Below, piece by piece: positions 15,904 to 60,903 of a DNA stretch of 64,000 bases; the stretch's first letter is position 1, and the number at the start of each line of letters is the position of its first letter. The stretch lies in the NCBI GenBank assembly GCA_001938485.1, contig MQRK01232195.1, positions 1 through 64,000 on the forward strand, written 5' to 3'. The translations under genes were made by a program, and so were the position numbers. The notes under the pieces are model-generated. The model was not told the origin of the DNA. It did not search any database and saw only the letters and a program-made list of their open reading frames with translations. The stretch comes from Girardia tigrina. Lineage: Eukaryota.

Positions 15904-16212
15904 GTCGTTACACTGTGGTATCGAGCACCCGAGATCTTAATGGGGTCCAAGCGATACTCTTGCGCGGTCGATGTATGGAGTGTGGCGTGTATATTTGCTG
16001 AGATGATCACTCGCAAACCACTCTTCCGTGGCGACAGTGAGATTGATCAGATATTCAAGATATTCCATTTGCTTGGTACTCCGACAGAGCGCGCGTGGCC
16101 AGGAGTGACACACCTTGCAAGTTGGAATTCAATGTTGCCCATATGGAGAAGTAACTGTCTTGGATCTGTTCTAAAGGACCAGATGACACCTGATGCACTT
16201 GATTTAATATCT
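15904..16212 (+). CDS. CDK1: Cyclin-dependent kinase 1, exon 4
   Basis: TAG acceptor; [28 protein letters not shown]; GTAAG donor at 16213. Confidence 0.95.
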
Positions 16213-16569
16213 GTAAGGCTTTTATAATTTGTAATTTGTTATCTTATTCTTTTATTTATAAGTAATTATTTTACTTCTATTTTTCCATTATTTTTCTTTT
16301 ATATGTATATATATATATATGTCCATGGAATTTAAAAACCTATTTTTGAAACATTTTTATTCAATCAAATTTCTTCAAACTTTGCACACTTACTTATTTT
16401 CGATTACAATAAATGATAATGTGAAAATTTGAATAAAATATCTATTTAAGGTCTTAGAATTGAAAAAAATGGCCAAATCCAGAGTTCCTAAGCAATATTA
16501 GTTTTTAAATTTAAAAAATTATTTGTTGCTTTAAGAATAGAATTCTTTAGATATTTGAATAATTGATAG

Positions 16570-16890: not shown

Positions 16891-19800
16891 CTTAAGATTG
16901 AAATTCTTTCATACCGAGTTAGATTTTGGTTGGTAATTTCATACTTTTCTGCAATATATTTTGTCAATTTTTCCGCACCAGCGTTAGAAATCAACGTGTG
17001 TATCTGCATAATCATTTCTTCTCTGTTTGATTCCGGTATCCAAATTTTTTCTTTGTTCGTCTTTATTATACCATCTATAATCACTAAAAGGCACTGAACA
17101 TTTTTATCTTTTATACGAAATTCTACACTTGGCCGTCCTTTCAATTTTTTTATAATTTATGTCAAACTTTGCTATTTTTAATATATCTGTTGTAATATTT
17201 CTTTCCTTTCTTTCTTTTTCAAAATCCATGCTATCACATTTTTCATAACTTTCTTTATTCAAACTATCTAATTCACACATTTCTAGAGGAATATTTTCAT
17301 ACATACAATCACACACACATTCATATGTACAATCAAACATACATCTGCGTTGACTTTCTAATGAAGCACACTGATCACCTCTCTCTGTGATCGTGCATCC
17401 TCGTTTCCCGGATCATCTCTGAATTTTGATCGTTGGGCATATGAACCCGGTTGATACACAAATAAATTCGGTGCATATATCGGCCCGAAGGCGTCCTCTT
17501 TACCACCCCTGGTTTCCACTGGGGTTCTTTCACTAGCGGCCTCCCCCAGCACCCTTCAATTGAGTGAACGCTTCCACACACCGCACAGGCTTCCTCGATA
17601 GATTAGCGGTTAGATACCTTTTCCAACCCGCTTGTGTCTGTGTTCCTCACACAGACCCTTTCGCCACGCAGGCACACCCTCACTCCCTCATCAACCTCCC
17701 TTTCGGGAATCAAGTATTAGTCTACAAAAATTTATTTCAAAACAAGAGTTTTTTTCTGCCAGGACGGGACTTGAACTGATTTAGTTGGCCTGATTTTTCT
17801 TCAGCTTCATCGCTCGCCACTTCGTTGATGCTGGAAGCTGTCCGCGACAGCTACTTCATTGATTTCATCGTCTGTGTCTTCGAAAATTGGGCCTTCAGTC
17901 GCACGAGCTCTGGGATTGTGTACTGGATCGTCACGGAATTTAGCCAGGTTGGAGGAGTCTCTTCCGTCTTTGAATGCGATCCATTGACGCCCACTCCATT
18001 GGATATTGCTTCGGATGGTGGCGTGCGCAATGGCTTTCTCTCTGTGGAGGATGAAGATCGCATTGAGAGCTTTGATGTTGTCCGGGATCCAGGTGCCTAA
18101 AGCTCCTACAATGAATGTAAACAATGACACTTTATGATCGCTGAATTTTTCCTGAATGGATTCTTTTAGATGGTGATAATGTTCCAGATAATCATTATTC
18201 GCACGGGCTAAGTTATCTTTTTCATCGAAGGGACACTTGACGTCAATAAGAACAATTCGCCTCTTTTCAGGGAAGTAGACTTGCAAGTCTACACGGAGTG
18301 CAGAGTGAACAAATCGACACCGGTGATTGACATCGAGTTCGGCATTGCAGTGTTCCCTAATTTCGGAGGCCAGAATGTCAACGACAGTGTCATGACGAGC
18401 ATTAGTGTATGACATTAGTGTCGGACAGCAGCAGAGAACATGCATAAGAGTTTCAGCATTCTCTTGGCATCTCCTACAAATATCAGATTCCCCAAAACGG
18501 CAACTAACAGGCAAGGTGTAAGAGCGACTCTTCTGAATGAACTCCCACTCAAAGTTTGAGAGATTACTATTGTAAACAACAGAGGTCGTGTAAGAAGAGA
18601 GAGATAGGACAGACGCCGATCGGCCAACACTCTTCTGCTCAGTCCAGGAGTGGAGATAGTGGAGAGACAAACATTTCCTTAAGAACTCAGCAACTTTATC
18701 CTTTTCAGATGCTCGGATGGTGGAGGAGATCCGATAATCAGTATTTATGTCAGTCAGTGGATGGCTGATGATCTATTTATAGATTCATCAGCTTACCTGG
18801 CGGACTTACACTTCACCGATACGTACGTCCATTTCATTTATATCCCGATTACATCACTGCACTCCCGTTTCTATAGCCTCCAACCCACCTTTGTGTATCG
18901 GAGTCGTATAGAGGTCGCTCCCTGGGACCAGTTGCACAGATCATTTGTAGCCGGTGCTGCACCCCTGCCAGTACACGATTCCACCCATTTCCATGTATGG
19001 AATCATATTAGGCAGTGTACAGCCTCTCTTCTCTTCACCTTTCGAACCAAATTTACCACACCACCGTTTCTACAGCTTCCAACCCACTTCCATGTATCAG
19101 AATCTGTAGAGGTCGCTCACTGGGACCAGTGATGTAATATCCCAGGCTTCTCGCACCATACCCTTTCACACTATTGGGGATATTCACAATGCAGATTGAG
19201 CATATCCCTGAAAATCTCCAGGGATATGGGTACTTCTGACACTTTAGTGAACACGCCTGTCAAGATTAGACAGTGTGAACCAACGGGTCGCCGGCCCGTT
19301 GGAGGCCGGATTTACCGACTCCCTCATATAATATTCCTAAGAACGACCGATGTATCACAGAGTAATCTGAAGTCTAGCTGGTGTGGTCCCGAATGGGATC
19401 ATATAACCTCACAAGTTTCGTTATGCTTTTGGCTGATGTCATTCTGTTTTGTACTCCACCAGGTTGGAGTCTAAGTCCCGTTTTACTCCAGATCTCTCAT
19501 AATGATACTCAATCATTTCGTTCCAATTTTATTATATGAGAAGCCGAAGCTCCTCATCTGGGATATTCCTGTCTTTTAGATTCTTCTTTTCTATTGGTTT
19601 CGTCGGTATAGCCCCGTCTTGAAGAGTTATCTCCTTCATACAATTCATCGTCTAATTCGTCCAATTCCGCTACTGAATATTTCCTGTGTACGTCGGCCGG
19701 TCTCTATATTGTTGATTCGAGTAATTTTTCCTATCATTTTCCCATCGATATCTTCCATTATCCCGTTTCCATTGCTCGCGTTCCTTAAACCTATTTGGGT

Positions 19801-20860: not shown

Positions 20861-23418
20861 GGATTTTTGATATTAATCAAGTTTGTGGTGTTAAATTATG
20901 ATTTCGGAATTTGATAATACTGAAAGTGGCATAAACGCTACTTACATGGCGAACAACGCTGCTTTGAACAACTTCACGAACCAATTACTACCTGAAAAGT
21001 TCAGGAAAGGTTTCAGGAACTATTGTGATGACATGGATATCAAGAAAGAAGTTCGGATGAATAATGTAAAAGGAGTAGAACAAATAAATGTAAAGATCAA
21101 AATGATACACGATATTAAGAATATAGAGGATCAGATAAACGTAGTGAGAGAGAATGGAACGCAGAACAGCTACAAGGATGCTGTGACTCAAAATAATAAT
21201 AGATTTGAACAAAAGCATACAAGAGTCGGGGGCACAGAAAAGAACAGATATACTAATGATCAAAAGTGGGAGAGAAACCAATACTCGAGCGTAACAAATA
21301 GACAACGGGAGACTAGGAAATGCTTCGGATGTTGAATGGAGGGATATAATAGAAAAAACTGTACAGAAAGGAGACAAATCAAATGCCATGGTTGTGGACA
21401 GTAGGGACATGTAAGAAGAAACTGTCCGAATATCGAATGTAAACGGTGTCATAATAGAGGTCATCGGGAGGACAAATGTTACACCAACTTAAACGGGAGA
21501 AGAAACCAACAAAGATCAACGAATAACATATATCAAGGAGGGGGTTACAATCAACGACAAAATAGAGATAGAGAAAACAGGAGAAGAGGAGACAATAGAG
21601 GATTAGTAGCGAACATTGAAGAGAATATGAAGAATCGGTAATGGAGGAAGATCACCCAAAAGACAGAGCCTCGACAGAAGTGGAGCCAGTCGGGACAATA
21701 AACTAATAAATATAAAGGATTCCCAAAATATCGGTATTTATAGTAAAAGTAGTATAACAGAAATTACAGACGTAATGAGTGACAAATCAGAAAATATGAA
21801 AGCAGTAGAATGGAACGTAAATGATAAAGTTTGGAAGTTTTTAAAAAAAGATGTATACGGAGATAATTGTGTAAAATGTTTAGTTGAACCAGTAGAGGAC
21901 AGAAATACTAGCGAAGAAACCAGGATTTTAACCATAGAAGAATGGAAAGCTGAAAATATCGTAAACAACAAAATGCAAGGTCGACCAAGTGTAAAAGTAA
22001 TGATACAACGTATCAAGGAGGACTGTTTATTAGACACTGGGGCTATAGTGAACGTCATGAGCAAAACAATTTTTGACAAACTAAAGGATGTGAAATTAGA
22101 AGCAGCAGATATTAAATTACACTGTGCTAATAACAGTCCACTAGAATGTATTGGTAAGATATCAGTAATATGTAAATATCAAAGACAAACAGAGAAATAT
22201 AACGTTTATAGTTGTAACTGACATTAAACCAGACATAATAGACGGGATAAATTTTCAAAGTGAGTTCGAAATTGAGTTATGTTGGAAAAAGAAAAACGAT
22301 GAAATACTCGATCAAAATTTTCAGGTATGTAATTTAGAACCAAGATTCGGCCGGAAAGGGACAGACGAGGAACGATTTCAGATAGCCAAAAATACGATGC
22401 ATATTGCTGATAAACCAAAGATAATCAATATCGTAGAGAGGCATAAAAGAGTCTTCATGGCGGATAAATGGGATATAGGATGCACGACGCTGATAAAACA
22501 CAGAATAGATACAAAAGGACCGCCAATTAATTTGAAACCACATAGACAGCCAATCAATCTAGAAGAGAAAATCAATGAAACTATAAAAAACTTGTGGGAA
22601 AACAACATTATAAAGAAGTGTAACTCTCAATGGAATACTCCGATGACATGCGTGTTGAAAAAAGAAAAAAATGATATCAGACTTTGCTTAGATTTTAGAC
22701 AACTGAGTCTAGTTACGGAGAGACAGGCATTTCCAATGCCAAATATGATAGAGATGATGGACAAGTTGTATGGATCTAGATATTTTACTTCGATTGATTT
22801 GGGTAATGCATATTAACCAGGTAGAACTAGAAGAAGAATCAAAGCTGTAACGGCGTTTTCGACGAAAGTGGGTCAATTTTGTTTTAATAGAATACCGTTT
22901 TGTATTGCAGCGGCACCGGAGACGTTTCAAGAAGGTATGACAAGGATATTGGGGATATAGAACAGACAGTAGTTTATTTGGACGATATCCTAATCTTCTC
23001 AAAATCATTAAAAAAGCATTACGAGATTTTAGACAGAGTATTGGATAGAATTGAAAAGGCAAGTCTAAGAATTAATCCAGAAAAATGTCATATTTTAAAG
23101 ACAGAAGTCTAATTCCTGGGGTATGTAATCAACGAAAAAGGGATTCAAACAGATCCGTCCAAATTGGAAGCTATTAAATCTTTTGAAAAACCAAAATGTA
23201 TAAAGAATCTATGAAGTTTCCTAGGGACCTGTAACTATTATAGAAGATTCAACAAAGATTATGCAACGAAAGCAAATACATTACAGCAATTGTGTGGATT
23301 GGACAAGAAGAAATTATTATGGACAGAGGCGTGTGATATAGTATTTGCTGAGATGAAGGAAGCCTTGACTACACCCCCAATTCTTGGATTCCCAGATGTG
23401 GAGAAGGAATTTATTCTA
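20860..23418 (+). mobile_element. Gypsy family 3 element (LTR end, PBS, gag, protease, RT), truncated
   Basis: TTACA|TGGCGAAC; CCHC knuckles; LLDTGA; RLCLDFR, YLDDIL; stops and frameshifts. Confidence 0.9.
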
Positions 23419-24520
23419 GAGCTTCCAATCTCAACAACTGGAAAGGAAATCTCCCGTGTAACAAATGATTTCTTCGAAATTTATGAAATTCAATGGAGCA
23501 ATTACATTAGCGTTTGCATTGATGGAGCTGCAGCAATGATGAGCAATAAAAAGGGGTTTGTCTCATGTATAAAACGACAAAATCTGACAATGCAATTTAC
23601 ACATTGCTGCACTGATGGCTAGGAACTATTTCAATTATCAATTTTCGAAGCATGGGATCAGAATATAAATCCTTGTTGTACTACACGGAAGTACGCTGGC
23701 TATCCCGAGGTAAAGTTTTGGTCAGATTATTTGAGCTTCTTCACGAGGTTAGTCAGTTTCTACTTAATCAAAATATGTCAGAACTTCATCAGTTCTTCGA
23801 AAATAATCATTGGATTGTCAAAATAGCATACATGGCTGATATATTCGAACACATGAACGAACTTAATAAAAAAATGCCGGATCCGAATGAAAATTTATTG
23901 AAATGCTCTGACAAATTAAACGGATTCGAATCGAAACTGGAACTTTGGCAGACAGTGTTAAAACAAGCATCACTAGGAATGTTTCAAAGGATTGAAAACA
24001 GACGAATAATGTTGGATTTGGCTCAACAACATTTACCATTCCTGCAACACAAATTTGAGTACTACTTTCATGCAATCAACACAGAGCAATATGATTGGTT
24101 TCGAAATCTTTTTGGTACAAATGTGGCAAAATCTACAGAAGGATTATCCCTGAAAATTAGAGAGGACTTTCTCGAATTGCAGAACGACAGAACCTTAAAA
24201 ATAAAATTCATGGAAATGCCATTAGATGTTTTCTGTATTAAATTAAAGAATGAATATCCTCTGATATCCGACAAAGCTATCGAAATCTTGCTGTTATTTT
24301 ACACCACATATTTATATGAACTGAGTTTTTCCACCTTAGTGTTAATTAAAAATGAAAAACACTCCTGTTTGAAAAGTCTTGATGAAGAACTTCGGGTTGT
24401 TCTTTCAAATATTGAGCCAAATATAAAACATTTGTGTTCCCTGAAACAAGTGCAAATATCCCATTAACAATTTAAAAGTAAATTATAATATGTATATTGT
24501 GGTGCTCTGACTTTGATCAA
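23419..24520 (+). mobile_element. hAT (Buster/Charlie, ZBED5/SCAND3-like) transposase 3' part
   Basis: VCIDGAAAM, THCC, TEVRWLSRG, ELSFSTL, hATC dimerisation region. Confidence 0.9.
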
Positions 24521-33803: not shown

Positions 33804-36800
33804 TGTGATGAATATTTTGAATGGTGCTTATTGTATGTTGTTTGGTATGTTGTTTTAGGATTGTGTTTCTCCCACCCACATGGAAGATTAATATTTTAAA
33901 TATTTTAAAACGTCGAATTATTTCTTCTATTTTAAAATTTGAATAACTTACTTTAAAATTTAATTAACATATAAATAATATATCTAAAATATTTTTTAAA
34001 TAATTAAAATTATTTTTGTAATTTATACTATAAATTATTTTGAAAGCGAATTTTAAATAAATTGTAATTTAAATTTGTTTAAATAATAATACGTTGAGAA
34101 ATATAATTAAATTTATTAATCAAGAACGATGATGAGCTACGAAAGTTTTATGGAGAATTGTCATTGAGACAATTCAAGTTGTGATGCAAATAAATGTATT
34201 AAAAATCCAATCAGTGTTCTTAATATGGCGACCAACGACCATGTGACTCCGCACATCAAAGGTCCAGAGATATTCGACAGATCTGAGTCAAAAGTAGAGG
34301 AATTCTTAAAGAGCTTCGGCAGATATGCGAAGATCATGGGATCCTAAGAAGAAAGAAGAGTCTTGCTGGTGACAGCATTCATAACTCTAGAATCAATAAA
34401 TAAGTACTAGAATGCACAAGGAGATACCTGGGAAACAATAATGAGATCCGCATTCACCAGAGAAAAGAAAATCCTTGAGATAATAATGGAACTTGTCGAA
34501 ATAAAAGTTGGATCGAACGACCCTTACAAATAGACGAACTAGTTTGGAAAACTAGTAGAAAAGAAATTAGGAAAAAATAGATATCAGACCTGGTATATGC
34601 AAACGTGGTAGATGATAGAAAAAAGAAAAAAAAAAGAGAGAGATAGCCGTGAGAGATGTCGAATGTATACAGAAGAAAATATACGAATTAGAATCTAAGA
34701 GCAGAGATATAAGAGTGGACACTTACTCGACAAAGAGGGACAATGAAAGGAGAACAGTCAAACATAAGAGACGATGGCCAAGACCACGAAACGAAGAAAG
34801 AATAGTAGAAGAAACAATGAGAAATTTTAAAACGAGAAGAATTTCTTGTTGGGCATGCAACGACGAAGGTCATGTGAGAAGAGAATGCCCAAACATTAGG
34901 TGCAACCACTGTAACAGGAAAGGACACGTAAGAACACAGTGCTATGAAAATCCGAATAGATTCAGAGAACGGAAGCAATGGAAACGAGACAAAAAAACGC
35001 TGGAAGAGATAACAGAAGAAATTATTTGCATGTGAAATATGGAGAACGAAGGACAAAGACAAATAGAAAATATCCAGTGGCTGAATTAGGAGAACGAAGT
35101 GAGGACTGGACAGAATGTCCGAAAGAATAGATATAAGGGGAGGTGTGACAAGAAGAGATTGCTTCACGATGAATAGGAAATTTAGAGACGAACAGGGAAA
35201 CGAAGACGCACGATCACAGGAAGAAGTGATTAGTGAGCTATAATAGAAAGTAAATGTAGGTGTATAATAGATTTTATGTGTGAATGTGTATGTGATTGTA
35301 TGTTTCATGATGTGTATAAAAATATTCCTCTAGAGGTGTGTATATTAGATGGTGAACATGATGAAAATGATGAAAAAGTTGATAGTATGAAAACTGAAAA
35401 AGAGAAGAAGAGAAAAAGAATGTAGATGTATTGAGAATACCAATGTTTAACATAAATTATAAAGAATTGAAAGAACGATCAAGTATAGAGTTTCACATAA
35501 AGAATAAAAATGTACAGTGCCTGTTAGACACAGGAACCCGAGTCAACGTTATGAAAGCAGAGATTATCAAAGATATGAAAGATGTCAACATCAAAGAAAC
35601 AAAACGACGCATACACTGTGCAAATGATTCGGAACTTATGAAGTATGGCATTATGCAACTACAAGTGATAATTGAAAAGGAAGAGAAAATGATTGATTTT
35701 TTGTAGTCAAAGATCTAGATCCGGAAATGATAGCAGGGATAGATGTTTTGGACAAATTGAGAATAGTTGAAGAAAGAACCACCTCAAACTGAGAAGGTAC
35801 TAGCAATACGAGACAACCCCTCTGATAGTATAGACTAAAAAGAATAAAAGAGCTGTGCGAAAAGAAAATCGACGACCAACTCATGAAACTTTAAAGAGCA
35901 TATAAATCAATATTTATGGTCGACAAATGGGATATTGGAAGAACTTTATTAAGAAAACAGAAAATCGAAACACATGGAGAACCGGTATTAGTTAAACCTT
36001 GTCAACAACCGAAAAATTTTAAAGAAAAATTGGACGACATCATTAGAAATTATGAAGAAAACGATATTATCGAAAAGTACAGTTCCCCGTGGAAGTTTCC
36101 TCTGGTATGTGTTTGGAAAAAAGAGAAACAGGACATAAAGTATAGATTTTTTGACAATCGAACAAAATCACGGTCAGACCTGCATTTTCAATGCCAAGCG
36201 TAGAGTAGATGCTAAACACTCTAAATGGAGCAAAGTACTTCAGCACGATCGACTTTGGAAGCGCATACTATAAAATTGAGAGGGAAGATGAATCAAAAAT
36301 CAAAACAGTATTCTCGACAAAAAATGGCCAATAGTGTTTCAAGAGAATGCCGTTCGGAATTGCGGCGGCACCAGCAACGTTCCAAAAACTAACGATAAAA
36401 GTTTTGGGCGAATTGAACTGGATAGAGGCAGTTGTATATTTCTTTATTAAGAACAACAACATGGCTTTTCGAACTTTTATTTTCAATACAATTAGAATTG
36501 TCTTTTGGACAACTCTCAGCAAAGCTTTCGTAATTCGACATCGTTCTAAATTGTTGAATTTTAGTCAATGTTTTTTAATAAACAATTATTCGAACAAATT
36601 TTTCATTATTTTCAGATTTTATTTTTAAAGTTCAAATTTTGTAATTTTAGTAATAATTTTATCTACATATTAATTTTATTGAAAAAAATGATTTTATGGA
36701 AAGAAAGAACATTTATTTAATTTAAAACTTAGTTAAAGTTATTTACTTTATTTAAATTTTTAATATGAAAATTTGAAACGATTTAATATTTTTAAAGTTT

Positions 36801-37860
36801 TTTAAATATATTATGCTGTACTTTAAAATGCAAATTATACACGAATAATTATTTATCGTGAACATCCAAAATATCAATTTTGCATTTGGGTGGGAGAAAC
36901 ACATTTCCAAAGTACTAAACTCAATATACAAAATTCAATAAACCAATCTCAACATACCAAATTTAAAATATTCCTCACAGGGCAATAATCTGATTTTTGC
37001 GAAAGATAAAAAGAACATCTCAAACGAATTGAACACGTATTTAGTAAAATAAAGGAATCAGCTCTAAGAATAAACCCGGAGAAATGCCACTTCTTGATTG
37101 AAAGGACAAAGTTTTTCGAATACATGATCAGCAACAATGGCATAGAAACAGATCAGACAAAGAACAATGTGATCAGTAAGTTTCATAACCCTTCATGTGT
37201 TAAGCACTTGAGGAGTTTTTTTGGGTTTAACAAACTATTACAGAAAATTTCTAAAAGTCTACGCAAAATATTCAAAAGTATTGGAAGGGCTATGTGGAAA
37301 GAATAAAGATAAAAAAATAATATGGACGGAAGAATGTAACGAGGCGTTTCAGAAATTAAAGGAAAAAATTATCAAAGCACAAATGCTATCGTACCCAGAC
37401 TTTGGAAATGAGTTCATACACCAGCTTTGACACAATTGGCGCAGTGTTTTCACAAAAAGACTTATATGGAAGAGAAAGAGTGATTGTGTATGGATCCCAC
37501 AAAATGAACAAACATGAATTCGGATACTGTATTAAGAGAAAAGAATTTTTGGTAATCTACTATTTTACACAACACTTTAAACACTATCTTTACGAAAAGA
37601 AATTTTTATTAAGAACGGATCACAAAGATATCATATTTATGTAGACGACAAAGAATCCAATAACTCCACAGTTTCAAACTTGGATAAATTTCCTTTGTGG
37701 GTTAGATATGAAAGTAGAATACTGAAAAGGTGAAAAACACTCTAACACCGATGCAATGTCGAGAAATTCCTGTGAAATGTGTGTACAATGTCAGACGATG
37801 CACGAAGAAGCTAAGGAAGGAAAAATTAAAACAAGGATCTTATCCCTAGACGATGAATCA
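33804..37860 (+). mobile_element. Gypsy family 1 element (5' LTR 33804-34225, PBS, gag, PR, RT, RNase H), decayed and 3'-truncated
   Basis: TGGCGACC PBS; CCHC x2; CLLDTG; MPFGI..APATFQ; FDTIGAVFSQ; LRTDH. Confidence 0.9.
36445..36979 (-). mobile_element. Solo LTR, family 1, nested in the RT YxDD region
   Basis: Near-identical to 31212-31737; no TSD visible. Confidence 0.85.
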
Positions 37861-39104: not shown

Positions 39105-39513
39105 ATGAAGAAAAAACTTGTTTTTTATTTTTTCTGTTTTATATTTTTTGCACTTCTAATTCTACAATGGATAGTAAAGAAAGATACTGTCAGTAAATCA
39201 GCCATTTCTATAGTATTTTTAAATTATTCAGAAATTTATCGAAATATTACCAAACCTTATCAAAATATTTCCAAACAAAATATTACTCCAACGATAAGAT
39301 ACTTAATAACAACAAAGAAAGCTGAAAATATAAGTTTAAAGCTTATTTACTTCAAAAGAAAATTGTCGACTCTTCAAATTAAGCATACTTTGGAATTAAT
39401 TGAAGTATTCATTAAACAGCTTGATAAACATAATGTCACTTATTTCGCATATGGTGGAACTCTGATTGGAATTCATCGACATCATGGACTGATTCCTTGG
39501 GACGATGATATTG
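39105..39513 (+). CDS. LicD/fukutin-related nucleotidyltransferase (type II membrane), exon 1
   Basis: N-terminal TM segment; YFAYGGTLIGIHRHHGLIPWDDDI(D) LicD signature; GT at 39514. Confidence 0.9.
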
Positions 39514-39855
39514 GTAAACTATTTAATATATATTTGATATTTCTCTTTTTTATAAATGATAAAATAGTTTAGTTCAGATCCTGTAGATTTCAATTTCTAC
39601 ATGAATAGAAAATATTAGCCCTATTGGGAAAAAATTTTGCTGGAAATTTGAAATTGAAATTTCACTTAAAAACAATCAAATTGTTCCGTAATTAATTATA
39701 AATTAACATTAAATTATTCACATAAATAATTAAAAAATGACGATAAATTATTTTTTAAATTCAAAAAACGTTCGTCATAATGTATTGTAATCAATTTCGA
39801 CGAATCAACAGTTATCATCAGTCTAAATTAACAATGATATATTCGCATTTATATA

Positions 39856-40297
39856 TTAGGTTGGTTGAAAAATAATGGCAGCTTTTGAGCTTTATATTTT
39901 GTTTATCTACTTTGATATGTATATAAGTTTAAATGCATTAGTGTTAGATATTATTTGAAATCTTATGCCTAACTGTATATTCCTATAGCCATTATTAACA
40001 TATTGCTGTTATTTTTTATAATATTTACGGTGCTAAATTAATAATGGAAAAGATTAAAATTCGAGCAATTTTCTTCTACGAATTTAAACTGGGTCGTAAA
40101 GCAGCAGAAACGGCTCGCAATATCAATAAAGCGTTTGGCAATGGAACAGCTTCTGAGCGCACAGTGCAACGAAGGTTCCGAAAATTTTCTGATGGAGATG
40201 AAAACCTTGAAAATAAAGAAGGTCGTGGTCGTCCAGTTGCTGTTAACAACGGCAATTTGAAGACAATGGTGGAAACAGATCCCCGTACAACAAACAC
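39856..40297 (+). mobile_element. mariner element 5' part (TIR plus transposase HTH)
   Basis: TA|TTAGGTTGG TIR; IRAIFFYEFKLGRKAAETARNINKAFG...GRGRP. Confidence 0.9.
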
Positions 40298-40965
40298 GTA
40301 GAAATAGATAAATAGAAATTATTTATCTATTTATCATAATAAATATAAATTGTATATAAATAATAAAAATAAAATTTAATATAAAGATAAACAAAAGAAA
40401 TAAAATAGAAGAAAGTTTATGACGGAAAAGAAAGCATTATATTTTAAAAGGTAAATAAAAATAAATTATATTTAAAGAAGACTATAAAAGGAAAGAGTTT
40501 TAAAAGAAAGTTCGACAAATAAGAACCTTAATTATATATTAAGCGTTAATTAAGAAGATCAAGATAAGCCTTTATCGAATTGATCTTAATTATTCCGAGA
40601 ATTTACCGATTTACATAATTGTGATCTCACGCAGAGATAATTTAATCTAGCAAGAATTATAAAAGGCGTTTGTATTAGAAGTTTGAAAACTTATGGCAGA
40701 ATCAGAAACAAATTGAATTCTATCAAAGTGCGAATTAATATAATTTATATATTTTCTTAATTATATTTTTATATATTTAAAATAATTCGAGTAAGAGAAT
40801 ACTCATCTCGTATTATCCAAAATCCAAAATCAGCTTATAGGATTTAAGTTTTGTTTTAAAATATTTTTGTAATTACTGTAATAAAATGAATAAATATTTA
40901 TAAAGAAATCTTTGATTTTTTACATTTCGTTTTACATTTTATTAAGTCACCTCGATACGCCAACA
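40297..40965 (+). mobile_element. Probable solo LTR, family 2
   Basis: Interrupts the mariner ORF; ends ...GCCAACA; similar to 1843-2665. Confidence 0.5.
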
Positions 40966-41395
40966 TATGTAACCACTCTCGACAGATTTTATTAAGCGCA
41001 GTACTCGACGCAACTCTCCATCTGACATCTACGAATAGTACCAGATTTCAAGTTACCTTCGGGTCTAAGCTGACACGAGTATTCCCCTGACAGTAGCAGC
41101 ATGGTCTATTGGGTATGATTCCTATTTAAAGTCTATTTACACGGAAGATCTCATTCAAGTTCACGCTCAAGGCAAATGAATGTTATGCCGTATAGGCACA
41201 CCATGCATGATGCATCGTCCTCGAGACATTCATTATAATCATAACGTTTATTTTACTTATACATATAACTGAAGTTGATTATTCGTACCAACTATGCTGT
41301 TCGGTTTCGTTAATATATTTTCGTTAAAATAAATTTGTTTAAATATTTTTTTTATAAAAGTAAAGAAAAAAAGGTAAATTTAATTTTAATATTAA

Positions 41396-41399
<4 letters not shown>

Positions 41400-41447
<48 letters not shown>

Positions 41448-41452
41448 GGAGA
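41400..41452. repeat. (TA)n(GA)n microsatellite
   Basis: Seen directly. Confidence 0.95.
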
Positions 41453-41649
41453 GTTCGAATTTGATTTGGAACTACAGAATCTGAAAGATGGAAACATAAT
41501 TTGTCGAAGAATTGAGTGAATTAAGAAAGTAAATAACGAATTATAAAAGAGGGGAAAGTTGTGATTATTAATTTGTTTAAGTATTCTAAAAAGATTGTAA
41601 ATATTAAATAAAATCTACTTGTTGATGTTATGAATCCTGAAGTGAAACC

Positions 41650-42611
41650 TGGAGATTTAACTATGCCAGATTACAATCCTTGTAATTAACCGAATATATC
41701 AAAACAGATTATCCAGTTTGACAACTGTTTGTTCGATAATTACAGAATGGGTGGGATTGTAACTTTCCTGTAATATCATCAAAAATTCCATCAAATTCTC
41801 TTTATTCTGGCTGATACTCCTCAGAAATCATAATTTTATCGTATATCTTGTTTCCCAATTTTACTGATTCACCTTTGCATTCACCGTCAGTATCCATTGT
41901 TCCCTTTCGCAATACTGATTCTCTCATTATTTATCCTACTTTTGCTGCTAACTTCAAATTAGAATCAATTTTTAGTTCTTTAGTTTGAAAAGCTGCTTCA
42001 CAAATTCCTTAGTAGTATTTCCACTGATCTTGGTATTGAATCAATTTTTATAATAGAAGTATTTCAGCTCTTCGAAATCCTGATCCGTGGTACAAGTGAT
42101 ACATAACATTTGTTTCTTCTTTGATTTGTAAAGGATAGGCTTCTGTACCTTCCGCAACATCCATTAATGAATATACTTTACCAAGCTCTGTTTACGAACA
42201 ATCATACGCAACAAGAGATGAAATTGGTACGATGCAGAAAAGAAAAATTTGAATTAGTGCTAACCACCACATTTTTGAATTCACTCTAGAGTGTTTTCCA
42301 TTATTAATTTCCTCATTCATTGTTTGTTCCTTGGTTAACACTTTCTTTCTCACTTTTTTATTCTTTTTAGGCACAATATCTATAAAATTAATACTTGTAT
42401 TTACCTCTGCATTATTTTGAAATATTAAATTATCATCCTTATCTTGTAATTCATTTTTAATTTCAACTTTTAAATTCTCTTTAAGTATACTAGTATTCAC
42501 ATTATCATTAAAATCTTCAACAAAATATACTGTTATTTTATTAATTTCACTTTCATGACATCCATAATCATATAAATTCTTGATCAAAGAGAAGTTGATA
42601 TAAGAAATCAA
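41650..42611 (-). pseudogene. Decayed chuvirus (Jingchuvirales)-like fusion glycoprotein / env-like gene
   Basis: Signal peptide MWWLALIQIFLFCIVPISS then LVAYDCS*TELGKVYSLMDVAE, CEAAF, GTMDTDGECKG, CNYRTNSCQTG, YKDC; several in-frame stops. Confidence 0.7.
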
Positions 42612-42619
42612 TGTGGTTT

Positions 42620-43140
42620 ACCAAGTAATTATGTTTTTGCTGTAAGAACTAAATTCGGTAAAAGATTAACAATAACTGTTTTATTAAATGATAGATATAT
42701 TACAGCTTTAGTTGATACTGGTTCAGCAGTCACAATTGTTGATGAAAAGATGCTTCTGGCATCTGAAAAATTAAATCTGGCACCTTGTATTGAAAGATTA
42801 CAATCAGTTACGGGTCATTATCTCGCTATTGAAGGAACTGTACCAGTGTCAATAAAAATTGGTGGCAAGACTATTACAACAAATGTATTAATTTCAAAAA
42901 GTTGCCCAGAATCATTACTGCTTGGTATGGATGTTTTGCAACAGTTAGAAGGTGTTTCTCTAGATTTAAAAAGCGGAAATTTGGTATCCATACCTGATGG
43001 AAAAATCTTACATAAAGTAACCGATGTGTTTATCAGCGAAAATTTATAAATTCCTTATCAAGCAGAATTAGTATATCATGCAGATGTAGTCAGTCACATC
43101 AAAGGAAATCTACTTTTTCAACCAAATGAAGAGTTTATAT
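42620..43140 (+). mobile_element. LTR-retrotransposon aspartic protease fragment
   Basis: ALVDTGSAVTIV...LLLGMDVL. Confidence 0.85.
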
Positions 43141-44137
43141 CAATTTTTAACAAATTTTTTAAGGTAAATTAAAACAATTATTTATTTTAGCCAAATATTA
43201 TATTGAATGTTAAGTCAATTAAGGTAGACTTTAAAATATTCTAATTAATTGAATATTAAGAATTTAATAATATTTGCTTTTAACTTTATTCATTTTACTG
43301 TTCGAAAATCGTAAAAATACATGATCATTTTGTAGTCTTAATATTTTTGAAGAATATATGTTACTTATTACTATTATATATTTTGTTTTAATGGACGGTC
43401 AGAAATTCGCGATTTCTTTCAAGGGGTTTTGTTTTAACAGTATAACGTTTTTGAAAAATCTCTTTTAACTTTTATATTTTGAAAAGGTGTAATGATAACT
43501 TATTGATATTAATATTATTATTGTTTAACTGTCGTCTAAATATCGATGACGATATTTTTTATTGGGGAGAGATTTGTTAGGATTTTGGAAAATGCATATG
43601 AACACTTCTTGATAAAATGTTATATAAGTAAAAATTTAAAATAATTCTTTTGGTAAAATTATTAATTTCAAACAAAATAATATTTAGTTTAACAAAACTT
43701 GGAATTAAAAATTATAAATGTTTGTTTTACTTCATCAAAAATTATAAATATTTTAGTCTTTGTTTTATCTCATCATTTTTCAAGAAATTTACTAAAAGAA
43801 GAAGTCTCTGTAACAAGTAACGTAAATACAAAATTTATTTTATTTTTATTTTATTCTTTTAAAATATTGTTAAACCATAAGTATCCTGTATGGGAGAAAA
43901 AAGTTTATTCTAAAAAGTACAATATCGTTCGTTTTGGGAGATTCACAGTCTTTACTGTAATCTGTTAACTCGCACGAAAGTATTGATTTGTGTTGGTATT
44001 CTGTCATCAAGAATTGAATTATTATTATTATTTTTGAATTGTTAATTTTTGTTATTTGAAATAAAGTTTTATAAAAGAATTTGTGTTCATTATTCATATA
44101 TTTATATTGGAAATCCTTTCTGATTAATGGGAGTCAG

Positions 44138-44240
44138 ATCAAAGATTAAAGATTTCAGATTAAAGATTACTGATTAAAGATTATTGATTAAAGAATAAAG
44201 AATAGAGATTTACGATTAAAGATTAAGATTTAAGATTTGT
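44138..44240 (+). repeat. Degenerate 7-bp minisatellite (GATTAAA)n
   Basis: Seen directly. Confidence 0.8.
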
Positions 44241-44709
44241 GTTTTAAAAGTAAATAATTATATTAAAGATAATTTAATACCAAACAAAGTGATTGATTAA
44301 TCCAGCGCGGCCGTCGAGTGTAGAGGTACGGCCTCCGTATTCGACCAATCGGAACCGTGTGAGCGCCATAATTTGATATCGATCAATCGAGTAGCAGAAA
44401 TCGACCGACAATAAATCGACAACGGTCGGTGGCGGCTTGTTGTTGACAATTTACGTTAAATAATGACGATAGCGCTTGATGGCATCGTAAGTAATGTTTT
44501 TTAAAGGTTAAATAAAGAACATAAGAAAAAAAACAAAAATTTCGAAATATCGCAAAAATTTATTGATTAATTAAAAAATGATATTTCAATGATATTATTT
44601 ACATTTATTTTTTTATATAGTAAGATATGTGATTTTTGATGTAAATAATAATATTAGTATTTTTATGATAATAACGATTTTTTTTATTGTTAGTTTTTTT
44701 ATTTAATTA

Positions 44710-47368
44710 AAAGTGGTCCCTACAAATGGTAATTATGGAAAAATTCAAAGACAACCCAAAGTCTGACAAATGTCATAAAATAAAGAAAACAGAAATGAAA
44801 AAATTAATAGTTTAACTTGAGCTGGTTTTTGAAGATATGTGCGAGGAATATATCAAATTCTGGGCCAATGATTTAGACTTCTGCTTTAAAATTTACCCAA
44901 GAAAAAGAAAGAATCAATTTTTTGCATCTAGTGGATGACTGGACAGTTTCAAAACATCACACAATATCAAAACGAAAACTATCTGCTGCGAATTCGCTGA
45001 TGTTGATGCAAATGTTGTTGCTAATTGGAAAAAGAAATTGGTGTAACTATGTACAGGATATGATAAGATAGACATTTATAATGCTGATGAAACGTCACTT
45101 GCGTGACGAATATTTTAAATTGTATGAATCTATTAATGCTGTATGTTGATTTGAATATTTTGAACCTAGAATGGTTATTCTCCTACGAGATGGAAATGTT
45201 TATTTATTATAATTACACTGATTGACAATTCGAACATAATTAAAATAATAATTTGATATTTTTAAAATTAACAATTAAAATGAAGTTTAATATTTTTTTA
45301 GAAAAACAAAAAGAAAAGCATTTAAATAGATTTAAATTAAATTCATTTTTAACAATTTAAAAAAAATTATTATTTTGAGTTTTTATAAAGAAATGGTTAA
45401 ACTTATTATTTTTAATTAATATTTTTAGAAATTAAATATTTTAAAAAGATTTAGAAAAATTGTTTGAATAAGCATGATTGAAAATAGAAAATAAAGAATC
45501 AATTATAGCAATATCAAACGGTGGAAAATCTTCCGAGAGCTTTGACGACTCTAAATGTGATAATAATAAAAATTCTAATAAAAACTGTCTCAACAACTTG
45601 TGTACTGAGTATTTTCATATAAAACAATTGCAGCAGCGGATGAAACTGTTATTTTTGTTGTGTGTAAGTAGCATTATTGCCACTTTCATTTTCACTAGAT
45701 TCAAGGTTCATAATTTAACACCAAAATTTTATTAATGACAATAATTCACATAATTAAACAAATTTCTTGTTAATTCATTTATTTCGCCAAAATCAATCTA
45801 TTAAATTTTTCTTTCTCTTCAATTTGTAAAATTTAATAAATTTTAAAACTTAAAATTAATAGAATTAATTTTTAAATTATAAATAAAACTTTTTATAAAA
45901 TTTTATCCTAAAACTAATTAATTTAAATTTATCCTGTCTTTTATTTAAAAAATTATTTTCTGATTTATTATAAAATTTAATCCGTTTTTATTTATTTTAA
46001 AATTCTTATTTCAAAACTTTTATTAAAATATAACAATTGTTTTTACTATTGTTTTTAATTGTTTTTACATTTTTAATTTTTAAATAAGTATTTAATTTTT
46101 GATGGTTTTCTTTATAAGATCATTTTTAATTTTAAAATATTTGAATTTATTTACTTTTTTTTAAACTTTCAAATTAAAAAAATAAGAAACTATTTGGCGA
46201 AATGCAAATTAAAATTAACTCCTCACAATGTTAATTTGCTAAGAGGGAAAATTTTAAACCACTATGATTGGGAAAGCTCAAGACCAAGATGTTTCGTGAA
46301 TATCAAGATTAAGAATTTTCTTGTCACCTGGAAACACAGCAAGAAGAGCTCTATAAAAATTGCAATATATTATACTTGGGTTAAGGTCTTCAATGATTAT
46401 ATTCTTAATATTCTTCCGTTCATTGGCAAATGTTTAACGCACCTAAGTTTGGTATTATCAAATGTCAAGATTACTTTTTGCCACCAAACATAACTCCTGA
46501 AATTCAACCGTTAGATCAAGGAGTTATTTGTTGATTGAAAAAAAGAATACCGCAAACTGTTCCTAAAGTCTATTGTAGTGTAAACTGGGAATCACAATTC
46601 AAGTATACAAATTGGTCAAAGCGATCTCCGTTTTGGATTCGTGTACTAGATTTCTGAAGCTTAGCAGAAAGGGAATCCTGGTAATATAAAAACACTTTAT
46701 GAAGTCCGCTTTTTCGGATCAAGAATTAAACTATGCACGCGAGTTGTAAGATGAAGAATCAAAGCAAGAAATCCTTGACACAACAGGGATTACTTTGGGA
46801 ATTCAATGTTTAGTGAATGACAATGATTTGATTGGATTTGACGATTATTCCGAATTTTTCGAGAATTGCAGTGAGGAAAATAGTTTTCAGTTGGTACTGG
46901 ATGAAATTCGGGTAATCTATAAAAGGTATTTCGGTTGAAGTAGCTTACAAGATTGAATCTTAGGTTGCAGGTGAGGCTAAAAGTGAAAAAGTGCCATCCA
47001 TAAATGAAGTTTTGGATATGATAAAGAAACTAAAATTTGTAGCCTTGCAGGAAAAATCCGAAGAGATAGGGTCCGGAAATGCTTAGGAAAGGAAAAACAA
47101 AAAGAAGCAAACTTTAATCACAAGCTAGTTAAAAAAAAGACTTATAAAACATAAATCGTACTGTTGACTGATGACGCTGATGTTGTTGGTTGACTCTTAA
47201 ACGTGAGAGATTGAAGATTAATAATAAATATATTTTTGTTCATACTTTGATCATATTTACAACTTTTAGTAGTTACAACGATGATTTGCGTGTCATATGT
47301 TTGGCACCCGTATAAGTAGGCCACCTTTTGACTCCACGACCGGTGTCAAACTTAGACAAGTAGCACTG
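44710..47368 (+). mobile_element. Tigger/pogo element, decayed, interrupted by a family-1 LTR (~45100-45590) and AT-rich DNA
   Basis: FASSG*LDSFK, IYNADETSL, IQPLDQGVI; 3' TIR ...CACTG|TA. Confidence 0.8.
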
Positions 47369-48852
47369 TAGTTTTACTTTCATTACAAAAACCTATTTTT
47401 CAAGTTTTTCGTGTGTTGAGTGTTTAATGTGTTTGTTAAAATAAATAAAGAACGCACAATAGTTTTTGTTTTATAAAATATATTTCTATATTACAATTTA
47501 ATTACAAAAATGATATTTGTATGTAAGGAGTGATATTTGGTTGGCCCCTGACCGATTTTATATTTATGGTCTGAGAGCCTTTAGCGACAACTCAGAAATG
47601 GCTAAATATTTTAAGGTTTAGTCTCACACTTTGCAGTGTGTTTATATAAAAGATATATACTTTTTAATAATAATTATTTTTAAATAACTTTTAATAATTG
47701 TTTTTAAATAATAATCGTTTTCTATTAATTACTTATTTCTTCTCTATGAGTTGATATAGATAGCACTATTACAGTGTGGTTTAATAATCTTCGTTTCTCT
47801 TTTCTATCCGAATTCGATCACTTAATTTATAGCGATACTTTATACTCCAGGAGGTGATCGTTTTTGAATAGTTAATATAGAATCAACGCTGGAGGTAGAT
47901 TTGTTTTCAGGTGGAACTTAGAAATCTTCAAACAAACTTTTAACTCTAATTAACTCCAATTTATAATGACCTTTTATACTGGTCATTTATTAATTAATTG
48001 ATTTTATTTTTTAATTTAAATTTATTATTTATTATTTTCTTTTAAATATTTATTTTTCTTATTCTTTTGTTTATTTAGACTTTTCTTAATATCTCGTTTA
48101 TTTATATAAAATATATAATTTAAAGGATTAAAATCATAAACATTTTCAGTTTATAAGAAATTTAAAAAATAATGGCAAAATTTTATAATTAAGAACGCCA
48201 TTAAAATCAAATTTTATTTTCAGTTTATGTTTTCAATTTCAAACAATTAAACAATTATCAAAATATTATTAAAATATAACTAAATACATATTATACATTT
48301 TAAAGTATTCCCTCAACACGTATATTAGAACTCTCAGATCTATTCAAGAGGACTTCTACGAATTTTTCAAATGGATAATACTCCTGTCATAATGCTTGCT
48401 TTGTTCAGCAATTTTTTTGTAACCAACAATGTTGAAACCATGAACTGACCAACTTAGAGGCCAAACCTGACTCTGATTTTAAGTGTGTGATCTGTTCTAA
48501 AACAGAATTTAGTCTTATCTTAATTAAATAAGTAAGAACTCTTTGAAACTGTGCAGTAAATTCGGAGAAATTCAGCTATACTAGTTAATGCTTATTTTAA
48601 AGTATATTAAACATGTTAGTGTCACCTCAATGCCAAAGGCAATTACCCCCAATTATGACTCCGATTATGGGTTAATTTATAATTAATTTTGTAAAATTAA
48701 AATTTTTAAATGAAATTTCAATTTCAAATTTTCATCAAACTTTTTAAAGTATATTTTCTTGTAAGATATATTTTTTTATATTCATCAGACTTGAATCGGC
48801 AGGAGACGAATAGAACTATACTCTTGTGAAATATTGCAACTATTTTTTACAG

Positions 48853-49457
48853 ATATTCTTGTCGACACACATCAGAAAAGCATTTTAATCACAGCTCTCA
48901 AGGAAAAAAATGAGACTCACAAATTAATTAGCTATGCTGGGAATCCCACAGGAAAATGGAAATTTTATAAGTTGGATGGTTCATCAATTTCTGGAAGATC
49001 TTTTAAATATCCTTACATTGACATATTCTTTTTCAGAAATCAAACTTCGAATCAGGTTTACGTAGAACTAGAGTCATACATTAAACTGAATGTTTCACTT
49101 TTATTTCCTATTATTAAAAGACTGTTTAATGGAATTCCTATCAATACACCTTGTAATGTCAATGAAACTTTAAGCACCATGTATGGTAATTTAGATTACT
49201 GCCAAAGTTCTACGTATGATCATGTTAGAGAAACATTAATATACCATAAAGCCCGAATTCCTTGCTATCTATTAGAACCATATTTCCCTTTTGTTAAAAG
49301 AGAAATTCAAAACAACACTGATAAAATTCTTATATCAGAAGTGCTCATAACAAATCAGACAATACGTCAATATGTGACATATCTGATACCCAAACAGTGT
49401 ACCGATCAACCTTCATTATTTAAATCTGAATTCCAATTACATATCATAAAGAAATGA
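48853..49457 (+). CDS. LicD/fukutin-related nucleotidyltransferase, exon 2
   Basis: ttttacag acceptor completes DDDIDILV; KYPYIDIFFF motif; TGA at 49455-57; AATAAA downstream. Confidence 0.9.
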
Positions 49458-59559: not shown

Positions 59560-60903
59560 GTCATTCCCAGATTGGCCAATCTATTTTTAGATCTACTTTT
59601 AGATCACCCTGGCAGTTCCATCTCATACAAATTACTCCAGACAAGAGTCATATGACCAAACATGACAAAAGACGTCAAACTATGGACAGCACAATGCTTT
59701 CAATGCCAGAAATTTAAACATCTAAGAAAATCAACCCTTTGATATATCACTTTCCTACTAGTTCACGCTTTGAAACAGTACACATCGATTTAGTCGGTCC
59801 ACTGACACCAGACAGAGGTTATCAATACATCCTCACCATGCTTGATAGATCTACCAGATGGACAGATGCAGTCCCTTTAAAACAAATAGACGCAGAAACA
59901 ATATCATAGATATTTCTTTCAACATGTATTTGCCGATACGGAGCTCCAAAATATATAATATCAGATCGAGGAAGACAATTTGAGGCAGAAATTTTCAAAT
60001 CACTGAACATTCGATTCGGAACAACACATATACACACTTCAGCATATCATCCTCAATCAAATGGCGGTTTAGAAAGATTCCACCGAATTTTCAAAACATC
60101 TTTAAAAATTTTAGCAGACGGCAATTCACGTTGGTTAAATTCAATGCCATACGTACTTTTAGGTTGGAGCAATACGCCTAACACCTCCACATCAACCACA
60201 CCTAGTCAAGCTCTTTTGGGTTCACAAATACGTTTTATAGTCGAATTAACAGACTGTGACTCAACTCCATCTGATCAAACAATACTTACAGCACGCGAGC
60301 ATTTTGAAAAATCACAGAAAGATAATTTTTTCAGAATATTAAACAATTTTAAAGATTTTATTCCGAAAACTATCTTTGAAGCAAAATTTCTTTGGTTAAA
60401 AAAACCATTCAGCACATGGACTACAACCAACATATATCGGTCCATTTAAAATCATCGAGATCTATTCACATAACGCAAAAATTTTAAAAACGATGTAGAA
60501 GAAATAGTTTATTTGTATAACGTTAAACCCGCTTTCTTTATTACTGATGACAACACACAGGATAATATCAAAATCAGTCATATTAGATTTATTATCTCCA
60601 AACAACTACAATATCAGTGAGGAAATACCTTCAAATAAAAATAATTACGATAATTCAATTCACAACTTGGATTACGAATTTACAAATTCTGAAAAACCTT
60701 CCTCAAATAATAAAAAAACTACACATTTCACAGAATTTAGACAAGCACTTTCACATCCACGGAAATGGAAAAGCATAAAAACCAGCGAAAGTCAAAACAA
60801 ATTAATTAGCACATAAGATTAAACTTAATAACAAAATCTTAATTATTTTTTTTATCTCTGTATCATATTTTTCCATATACGTTTGAATCTCAAGATCGGG
60901 GGC
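59560..60903 (+). mobile_element. Gypsy integrase fragment ending in a PPT; LTR probably starts at 60904
   Basis: HPG..C..CQ, VHIDLVGPL, ISDRGRQF, YHPQSNG..ERFHR; GGGGG then TGTG. Confidence 0.85.

What the first reader, a model, noticed from the sequence alone, without database searches (positions are those of the whole stretch)
41650..42611. Chuvirus-type fusion glycoprotein fossil, probably env of an enveloped retroelement
Seen on the minus strand: a charged ~110-aa reading frame runs directly into an internal signal peptide, followed by LVAYDC..YSLMDV, DGECKG and CNY..SC motifs. Known: this AYDC/SLxDV pattern is typical of Jingchuvirales glycoproteins, which LTR retroelements have captured in insects. 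Inference: an in-frame pol-tail/env layout, with an LTR protease immediately adjacent in inverted orientation (42620-43140), suggests an env-bearing retroelement in a probable flatworm, or else a standalone EVE.
Basis: partly seen in the sequence, partly recalled or inferred. Interest (0 to 1): 0.75.

Follow-up and report, generated by a model that had tools for sequence, protein, structure and literature searches.

The report
Scrambled retrotransposon envelope gene relic
This is a dead, partly inverted scrap of a jumping element whose relatives carry a virus-like membrane-fusion gene between gag and pol, a kind already described in planarian flatworms, so it is an ordinary genomic fossil and not a new virus insertion.

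Summary
42272-41655 (-) is the first third of a class III (herpes-gB-like, Pfam Monjiviricetes_fusion) glycoprotein gene, broken by five stops and two frameshifts. Its relatives are not free chuviruses. Of 13 long hits, 8 are single polyproteins with env followed by protease, 4 of them continuing RT-RNaseH-integrase, and none has pol before env. So the charged frame is the gag-side spacer, not a pol tail. By hand count the env is 53% identical to Schmidtea mediterranea errantivirus 1 and 2, published GAG-ENV-POL elements with gB-type env; planarian Burro elements share this layout. The adjacent protease (42585-43136, +) scores better against these polyproteins than the window's two other proteases do. 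A 91%-identical relative has a different sequence upstream. So the head-to-head arrangement is most likely a local inversion with loss of the last two thirds of env. The relic has no gag core, RT, integrase or LTR, and lies in a 9.3-kb intron of a LicD-family host gene. The junction was not checked in reads. Verdict: a new decayed member of a known kind; low interest.

The parts
41655..42272 (-). N-terminal third (about 205 codons) of a gB-type env: hydrophobic signal-peptide-like stretch, then domain I region. Stops in the homologous frame at 42194, 41933, 41804, 41711, 41663. Truncated near 41655. Keeps 6 of the 9 family cysteines of this region.
   Evidence: PF24664 E 7.5e-5, 21.3 bits, below the 27-bit cut-off; 45 homologs, best E 3e-29; 59% identical to P0048 over 227 aa; family profile 129 bits on 42002-41655 and 60 bits on 42458-42060; stops; cysteine columns read against the alignment
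42003..42059 (-). Tract between two compensating frameshifts; about 19-20 codons shorter than the relative P0048 here. Two conserved cysteines are absent.
   Evidence: Homologous residues appear in frame -3 (tblastn E 3e-7; translation); limits approximate
42273..42584 (-). Charged spacer that lies between gag and env in the relatives: 104 codons, no stop, no Pfam family
   Evidence: P0048 aligns up to 42452; the pre-env region of polyprotein P0007 aligns weakly up to 42581 (E 7e-4); no Pfam hit at E<=1; composition
42528..42575 (-). Probable last strand of the ubiquitin-like stretch found before env in several relatives (inferred, weak)
   Evidence: Best of all matches in 3150 six-frame tiles of the window with a profile of five stretches picked by eye, but only 7.9 bits (next 6.8); leave-one-out scores -2 to 4 bits
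42580..42587 (.). Junction where the minus-strand spacer and the plus-strand protease segment meet head to head; contains an 8-bp palindrome
   Evidence: Homology on the two sides ends at 42581 and 42585; such a palindrome has about 7% chance within 8 positions (563 in the window)
42585..43136 (+). Pre-protease linker, retroviral-type aspartyl protease (DTG at 42714-42722) and the start of the following domain; one stop at 43047-43049; truncated near 43136, no RT follows
   Evidence: PF13975 E 6e-9; 91% identical to P0049 over 103 aa; aligns to P0017 and P0007 up to 43133-43136; no homolog match in 43131-44000 at E<=0.05
39514..48852 (+). Context: 9,339-nt phase-1 GT-AG intron of a LicD-family host gene (exons 39105-39513 and 48853-49457) that contains the relic. 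Env is antisense and the protease sense to this gene.
   Evidence: LicD Pfam matches on both exons (E 7e-9 and 0.024); splice sites; the joined exons give one open frame of 337 aa with the LicD motif across the join; further exons within the intron not excluded

Best explanation
The stretch is a dead 1.5-kb fragment of a GAG-ENV-POL Ty3/gypsy retroelement (errantivirus with gB-type env, as in planarians). Shown: in intact relatives one polyprotein runs gag, spacer, env, protease, RT, RNaseH, integrase. Inferred from established retrovirus biology and PMC6431247/PMC13524379: the internal hydrophobic segment threads env through the ER membrane, the C-terminal transmembrane helix returns the chain to the cytoplasm for the protease and pol part, and the trimeric class III protein would let particles fuse with another cell. 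Shown for this copy: spacer plus first third of env on one strand, flush against linker plus protease on the other; the rest of env, gag core, RT, integrase and LTRs are absent. Inferred: an inversion with deletion, within one element or between two neighbouring copies, put the start of the spacer next to the protease linker. The scrap then decayed neutrally in a host intron and makes no protein.
For: Domain order in long hits: 8 of 13 hits of >=700 aa have env then protease, 4 of 13 continue RT-RH-IN, 3 of 13 show a Pfam zinc knuckle before env, 0 of 13 have pol before env. The model of the full-length relative P0004 matches herpesvirus gB (Foldseek E 5e-12; all 37 listed rows are gB). The fossil's own model matches chu-like glycoproteins (4 at E<=0.001). 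Codons 91-205 are identical at 61 of 115 positions to each of Smed_errantivirus_1 and _2 ENV as printed in the supplement of PMC13524379 (hand count, ungapped). The adjacent protease scores 12-50 bits against 8 of 8 env polyproteins, while the two other window proteases tested reach at most 8.7 bits. P0049 is 91% identical from 42585 on, but its 50 upstream residues do not match the window and carry the YP motif seen 28-90 residues before the protease in 8 of 8 env polyproteins (background 234 of 1696 60-residue windows).
Against: No single contig was found that links a close relative of this env with a close relative of this protease: P0048 and P0049 come from contigs of 1003 and 592 nt, and five locus scans found nothing. 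Protease kinship rests on low scores and two controls, one of them a 102-residue fragment, with no env-less gypsy proteases as targets. Lesions are unevenly spread: 5 stops in 187 env codons against 1 in 287 spacer and protease codons (binomial P 0.04; 0.008 with the frameshifts; post hoc), which fits two sources better than one. The fossil's Pfam score is below cut-off and its own model found no significant match in the PDB. The junction was not seen in reads, and the assembly has N gaps. The host is not identified.
Confidence: 0.8

Rival explanations
1. Same element family, but the head-to-head junction is an assembly chimera joining two repeat fragments; neither piece is inverted in the animal.
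For: Repeat-rich, gapped assembly (N runs at three places). The best sequencing run holds only half of the sampled words of 41400-43400. Uneven decay of the two sides. Palindrome at the junction.
Against: The flanking LicD exons join cleanly across the interval, so the wider locus is coherent. No N gap lies within 10 kb of the junction. Such a palindrome is not rare (about 7%).
Confidence: 0.08
2. The env fragment and the protease fragment come from unrelated elements that lie side by side by chance in a transposon graveyard.
For: The window is full of retroelement and DNA-transposon scraps. Env is more decayed than the protease. No contig links the two close relatives.
Against: The pieces abut within 0-7 nt with no LTR or spacer DNA. 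This protease, unlike two others in the window, resembles those of env polyproteins. Its 91% relative has the linker motif of env polyproteins.
Confidence: 0.07
3. In this lineage env is natively antisense to pol, or the inverted form is a replicated non-autonomous subfamily.
For: The arrangement in the window itself; the spacer frame has no stop in 104 codons.
Against: The 91% relative P0049 continues in the protease frame for 50 more residues that do not match the antisense of the spacer. All 8 long relatives holding both domains have them in one frame. The junction cuts the spacer inside a region conserved in relatives.
Confidence: 0.03
4. Standalone endogenous viral element: the glycoprotein gene of a jingchuvirus reverse-transcribed and inserted next to an unrelated retrotransposon piece.
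For: PF24664 match; the structural neighbours in the viral library are chu-like glycoproteins; such EVEs flanked by gypsy fragments are common in arthropods (PMC10084718, passages).
Against: Viral matches are at 13-16% identity, against 78% to P0048 and 26-39% to retroelement polyproteins over codons 91-205. None of 45 hits is 550-700 aa long. The in-frame upstream spacer is shared with P0048 and weakly with polyprotein P0007.
Confidence: 0.02

Closest known systems
Schmidtea mediterranea errantiviruses 1 and 2 (GAG-ENV-POL Ty3/gypsy, HSV/gB-type ENV, cysteine group C1a; Chary and Hayashi, PMC13524379)
   Same: gB-type env; 61 of 115 identical residues to each (hand count from the supplement); same cysteine spacing; relatives share the GAG-ENV-POL order reported for Platyhelminthes, Nematoda and Bryozoa.
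   Different: Those are intact and multicopy (45 and 215 copies). This is a sister family at about 53% identity, present here only as a broken, rearranged 1.5-kb scrap.
Burro giant gypsy-like LTR retrotransposons of dugesiid planarians (Arkhipova and Yushenova, PMC6431247, passages)
   Same: Env in frame between gag and protease, with hits to mononegavirus fusion glycoproteins; ubiquitin/SUMO-like and BCL2-like domains before env (also seen in several hits here); decaying fragments reported in Dugesia japonica.
   Different: No BCL2-like domain fits between the probable ubiquitin-like tail and env in this relic (about 85 charged codons; no Pfam hit). Giant size and LTRs cannot be seen. That Smed errantivirus 1/2 are Burro elements is my inference from their ~14.8-kb span against Burro's 4,873-aa ORF; the main text of PMC13524379 does not use the word Burro.
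Anakin, BEL/Pao elements of mosquitoes with a captured chuvirus glycoprotein (Dezordi et al., PMC7642597, abstract)
   Same: LTR retroelement carrying a Jingchuvirales-like class III glycoprotein.
   Different: Different superfamily and host. The relatives here give gypsy-type RT/RNaseH/integrase Pfam matches, with env inside the polyprotein before the protease.
Jingchuvirales / Monjiviricetes glycoprotein (Pfam PF24664) and herpesvirus gB
   Same: Same fold class and N-terminal AYDC...YSL pattern.
   Different: Only 9-16% identity by structure; free-standing viral genes, not polyprotein domains.

Membership tests
gB-type (class III) fusion glycoprotein, PF24664 | Profile match above the curated cut-off | tested here: inconclusive
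   Fossil 21.3 bits against cut-off 27, E 7.5e-5; its 59% relative P0048 scores 84.3 and long relatives 215-320
gB-type (class III) fusion glycoprotein, PF24664 | Class III fold | tested here: met
   Full-length relative P0004 to HSV gB, E 5e-12; fossil model (mean pLDDT 62.5) to chu-like glycoproteins, E 2e-4
gB-type (class III) fusion glycoprotein, PF24664 | Complete ectodomain, central helix and transmembrane anchor (needed for a working protein) | tested here: not met
   Homology stops near 41655; the family profile finds no other env piece in the window. It is a pseudogene fragment.
GAG-ENV-POL errantivirus (PMC13524379) | HSV/gB-type ENV related to described members | tested here: met
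   61 of 115 identical to Smed_errantivirus_1 and _2 (hand count); 6 of 9 conserved cysteines kept
GAG-ENV-POL errantivirus (PMC13524379) | Order gag, env, pol | tested here: inconclusive
   Met in relatives (8 of 13 env then protease, 0 of 13 pol then env); in the window itself the pieces are head to head, so the order is inferred
GAG-ENV-POL errantivirus (PMC13524379) | Ty3/gypsy RT and integrase in the element itself | not testable with these tools
   The relic holds no RT or integrase; 4 of 13 long relatives show PR-RT-RH-IN with gypsy-type Pfam families. Filed as a relic of the family, not as an intact member.
GAG-ENV-POL errantivirus (PMC13524379) | LTRs, primer-binding site, multiple intact copies | not testable with these tools
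   No whole genome held; no LTR-like repeat pair around the relic
Burro | BCL2-like domain between the ubiquitin-like domain and env | tested here: not met
   Spacer 42273-42584 has no Pfam match at E<=1 and is too short and charged after the probable ubiquitin-like tail; Bcl-2 matches do appear in hits P0004 and P0043. Not filed as Burro.
Burro | Giant polyprotein and >30-kb element | not testable with these tools
   Only 1.5 kb survives here
Standalone Jingchuvirales EVE | Closest relatives are viral glycoproteins, with no retroelement polyprotein context | tested here: not met
   no tree with viral sequences was built

The most novel reading that the evidence does not exclude
The inverted spacer-env/protease join is not a one-off scar but a replicated defective subfamily, or a retained intronic source of antisense env RNA: the host LicD pre-mRNA carries env in antisense and could feed small-RNA silencing of active envelope-bearing relatives. 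Copy number, reads and small RNA could not be examined, so this is not excluded.
Probability: 0.06. Interest if true: 0.5.

Novelty: new member of a known kind. Interest (0 to 1): 0.2.

Why it matters
Little by itself. It adds one more family, about 53% identical to the nearest named one, to the record of envelope-bearing gypsy elements with env between gag and pol, and suggests that the host genome once had such elements. Whether these elements form infectious particles is an open question, but intact multicopy members in S. mediterranea are the material to test it; this broken copy is not. The practical lesson for scans: chuvirus-like glycoprotein fossils in flatworm-like genomes should first be read as retroelement env, not as traces of chuvirus infection.

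Tried and rejected
Word-index protein search with the fossil among longer proteins: nothing; with P0048: 1 hit. Sequence search of the PDB: 1 chance hit, E 0.71. Fold search of the fossil model in the PDB: nothing at E<=0.001, HSV gB only at E 3-6; wide VIA search best Z 2.7. Locus scans with P0048 (metagenomes; viral) and with the protease (metagenomes; viral; genomes): no relative confirmed; alignments had no stretch conserved enough to serve as query. Earlier findings of the scan: nothing. Sequencing runs: two DNA runs of one organism hold 0.50 and 0.45 of the words, 18 rows hold small shares of 0.08-0.14; none was laid, so no evidence on the junction, expression or habitat. No language-model atlas result was obtained. 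Idea that the purine-rich + strand flank 41447-41656 is the first half of the ubiquitin-like domain, which would have fixed both inversion ends: it looked plausible by eye but was not supported (score 64; 158 of 250 random stretches scored as high; positive controls only 64-140), and the profile search and Pfam did not find it either. Palindrome at the junction: chance about 7%, not used as evidence. Tree of 32 rows (of 42 hits, those covering >=85 of 115 residues, plus the window): the window sits next to P0048, but no starred clade holds it and no viral or named sequences were included, so it says nothing on origin. P0039 among the 45 hits is repetitive and probably a chance hit. No target-site duplication or terminal repeat found. 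The join translation was out of frame by my indexing and was redone.

Full report
Observation. On the minus strand an open frame of 141 codons (42617-42192) ends in a hydrophobic stretch and AYDCS, and the same frame continues through stops with YSLMDV, DGECKG and CNY-xxx-SC. Read with X at stops from 42272 (P0001), it matches Pfam PF24664 Monjiviricetes_fusion at E 7.5e-5, below the curated cut-off. A search of 1.84 billion cluster representatives gave 45 hits at E<=0.001, best 3e-29; 200 shuffles of P0001 reach at most 31 bits against 8 homologs where the real sequence reaches 111. The feature is real.

State of the gene. Against its closest relative P0048 (59% over 227 aa; 90 of 115 identical over codons 91-205), the relic covers only the first ~205 codons of a ~650-residue domain. 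It has five stops in the homologous frame (42194, 41933, 41804, 41711, 41663), two more inside a frameshifted tract at about 42059-42003 that is also some 19-20 codons short, and it ends near 41655. Of nine cysteines conserved in the family over this region, six remain. A family profile finds no other env piece in the window. It cannot encode a working glycoprotein.

What the relatives are. Thirteen of the 45 hits are 700 aa or longer. Eight have the fusion domain followed by a retroviral-type protease in the same chain, four of these continue with RT, RNaseH and integrase, three of the thirteen show a Pfam zinc knuckle before env, and none has a pol domain before env. Of the other five, P0003 and P0004 end in or just after env, P0032 ends with env and has no Pfam match before it, P0029 holds a 55-residue piece, and P0039 is repetitive and probably a chance hit. 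No hit has the 550-700 aa of a free viral glycoprotein. A model of the complete relative P0004 (mean pLDDT 69.4) matches herpesvirus gB at E 5e-12. The fossil's own weaker model (62.5) matches chu-like glycoproteins at E 2e-4 and 13-16% identity but nothing significant in the PDB. So the protein is a class III fusogen domain of GAG-ENV-POL polyproteins, and the charged frame before it is the gag-side spacer, not a pol tail: P0048 aligns into it up to 42452, and the pre-env region of P0007 weakly up to 42581. Its first residues score best in the window with a small profile of ubiquitin-like stretches that I picked by eye from five relatives, but only at 7.9 bits.

The protease and the junction. 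The + strand segment 42585-43136 is a gag-asp protease with linker and the beginning of the next domain. It scores 12-50 bits against the proteases of 8 of 8 env polyproteins; two other proteases of the window reach at most 8.7. This is suggestive, not conclusive: scores are low and controls few. The one close relative, P0049, is 91% identical from 42585 onward, but its 50 upstream residues are unlike the window and contain the YP motif that lies 28-90 residues before the catalytic motif in 8 of 8 env polyproteins (background 234 of 1696 windows). The window therefore switches, within about 7 nt at 42580-42587, from the protease linker to the antisense of the gag-env spacer. If the native order is spacer, env, protease, an inversion of the spacer-env block puts the spacer's start against the protease linker, which is what is seen; the rest of env is lost. 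A deletion between two oppositely oriented copies would look the same. Against a single event: env holds 5 stops in 187 codons, spacer and protease 1 in 287 (P 0.04, post hoc). My attempt to identify the far end of the inversion in 41447-41656 failed (158 of 250 random stretches scored as well). No contig linking close relatives of both parts was found, no whole genome is held, and the junction was not seen in reads, so mis-assembly stays open.

Setting. The relic lies inside a 9,339-nt GT-AG intron (39514-48852) of a LicD-family gene whose two exons join into a 337-aa frame. The same intron holds a mariner fragment. No LTR pair or target-site duplication flanks the relic. The window is AT-rich and strewn with gypsy, non-LTR and DNA-transposon debris.

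How it works. Shown: domain order in relatives, fold class, decay and geometry here. Inferred: in the living element a single polyprotein is threaded through the ER at the internal hydrophobic segment, so that env is luminal and gag and pol are cytoplasmic; it is cut by host and element proteases, and the gB-like trimer would give particles a way into other cells. That such elements are infectious was not shown in the passages I read. The present copy is inert.

Comparison with print. Arkhipova and Yushenova (PMC6431247; passages seen) describe planarian Burro elements with ubiquitin/SUMO-like and BCL2-like domains, then an env with hits to mononegavirus fusion glycoproteins, in frame between gag and pol, and report decaying fragments in Dugesia japonica; Grohme et al. 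2018 is known to me only through them. Chary and Hayashi (PMC13524379; abstract, passages, section 14 whole, first parts of sections 5 and 6, and searches of the supplementary tables seen) report GAG-ENV-POL elements with gB-type env in Platyhelminthes, Nematoda and Bryozoa, including six in Schmidtea mediterranea. Their printed ENV for Smed_errantivirus_1 and _2 each match codons 91-205 of the relic at 61 of 115 positions by my hand count. Their figure supplements and full bait sequences could not be seen and may hold a closer relative. Anakin (PMC7642597, abstract only) is a BEL/Pao parallel. PMC10084718 (passages) covers standalone jingchuvirus EVEs in arthropods. PMC11410931 (passages) only confirms abundant gypsy elements and long introns in Schmidtea. 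I file the relic as a fragment of the GAG-ENV-POL errantivirus kind, not as Burro, because no BCL2-like domain precedes env here. The host is probably a planarian; this is inferred from the env's nearest named relatives only. I make no claim that this family or this inversion is absent from print; the five answered paper searches were aimed at the kind of element.

Verdict. New member of a known kind, dead and rearranged; interest 0.2.

Noticed in passing
proteins P0005, P0007, P0008, P0012, P0017, P0018, P0037, P0038, P0049: All 9 have Tyr-Pro 28-90 residues before the first protease motif, YPxL in 5 of 9 (background 234 of 1696). From memory this resembles either a retroviral aromatic-proline cleavage site or an ALIX-binding late domain; neither was tested or searched in print.
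   Followed up: partly
proteins P0004, P0043 (Pfam), P0003, P0012, P0032 (by eye): Bcl-2-like helical stretch just before env (PF00452 E 0.001 and 0.012, below cut-off), as described for Burro.
   Followed up: partly
proteins P0005, P0008, P0012, P0017: Several protease-like repeats in one polyprotein: four in P0005, two or three in the others.
   Followed up: no
protein P0007 (HBK71150.1): Labelled as a Flavobacteriaceae MAG hypothetical protein, but it is an env-PR-RT-RH-IN retroelement polyprotein: probable animal contamination in that MAG.
   Followed up: no
window 39105-39513 and 48853-49457 (+): Apparently intact two-exon LicD/fukutin-family host gene, 337 aa, with a 9.3-kb intron.
   Followed up: partly
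window 7029-7463 and 15904-16227 (+): Exons of a cyclin-dependent-kinase-like gene about 8.4 kb apart (read from the ORF list); another coding-like ORF at 10418-10861 between them has no Pfam match.
   Followed up: no
window 21631-23622 and 34619-37791 (+): Two decayed gypsy elements (protease, RT, RNaseH pieces) whose proteases differ from the env-associated one; no env piece near them.
   Followed up: partly
window 41447-41656 (+): Purine-rich stretch (64-66% purine in 41401-41600) between a TA/GA microsatellite and the end of env; looks like coding debris but matched nothing.
   Followed up: yes
window 44136-44226: Short degenerate tandem array of about 7-14 nt units 1 kb from the protease (family D10); origin unknown.
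   Followed up: no
window 17807-18772 (-), 23616-24467 (+), 39999-40301 (+), 59724-60449 (+): Non-LTR-like endonuclease fragment (by eye, weak zf-RVT match), hAT-like fragment, mariner HTH fragment and an integrase fragment.
   Followed up: no
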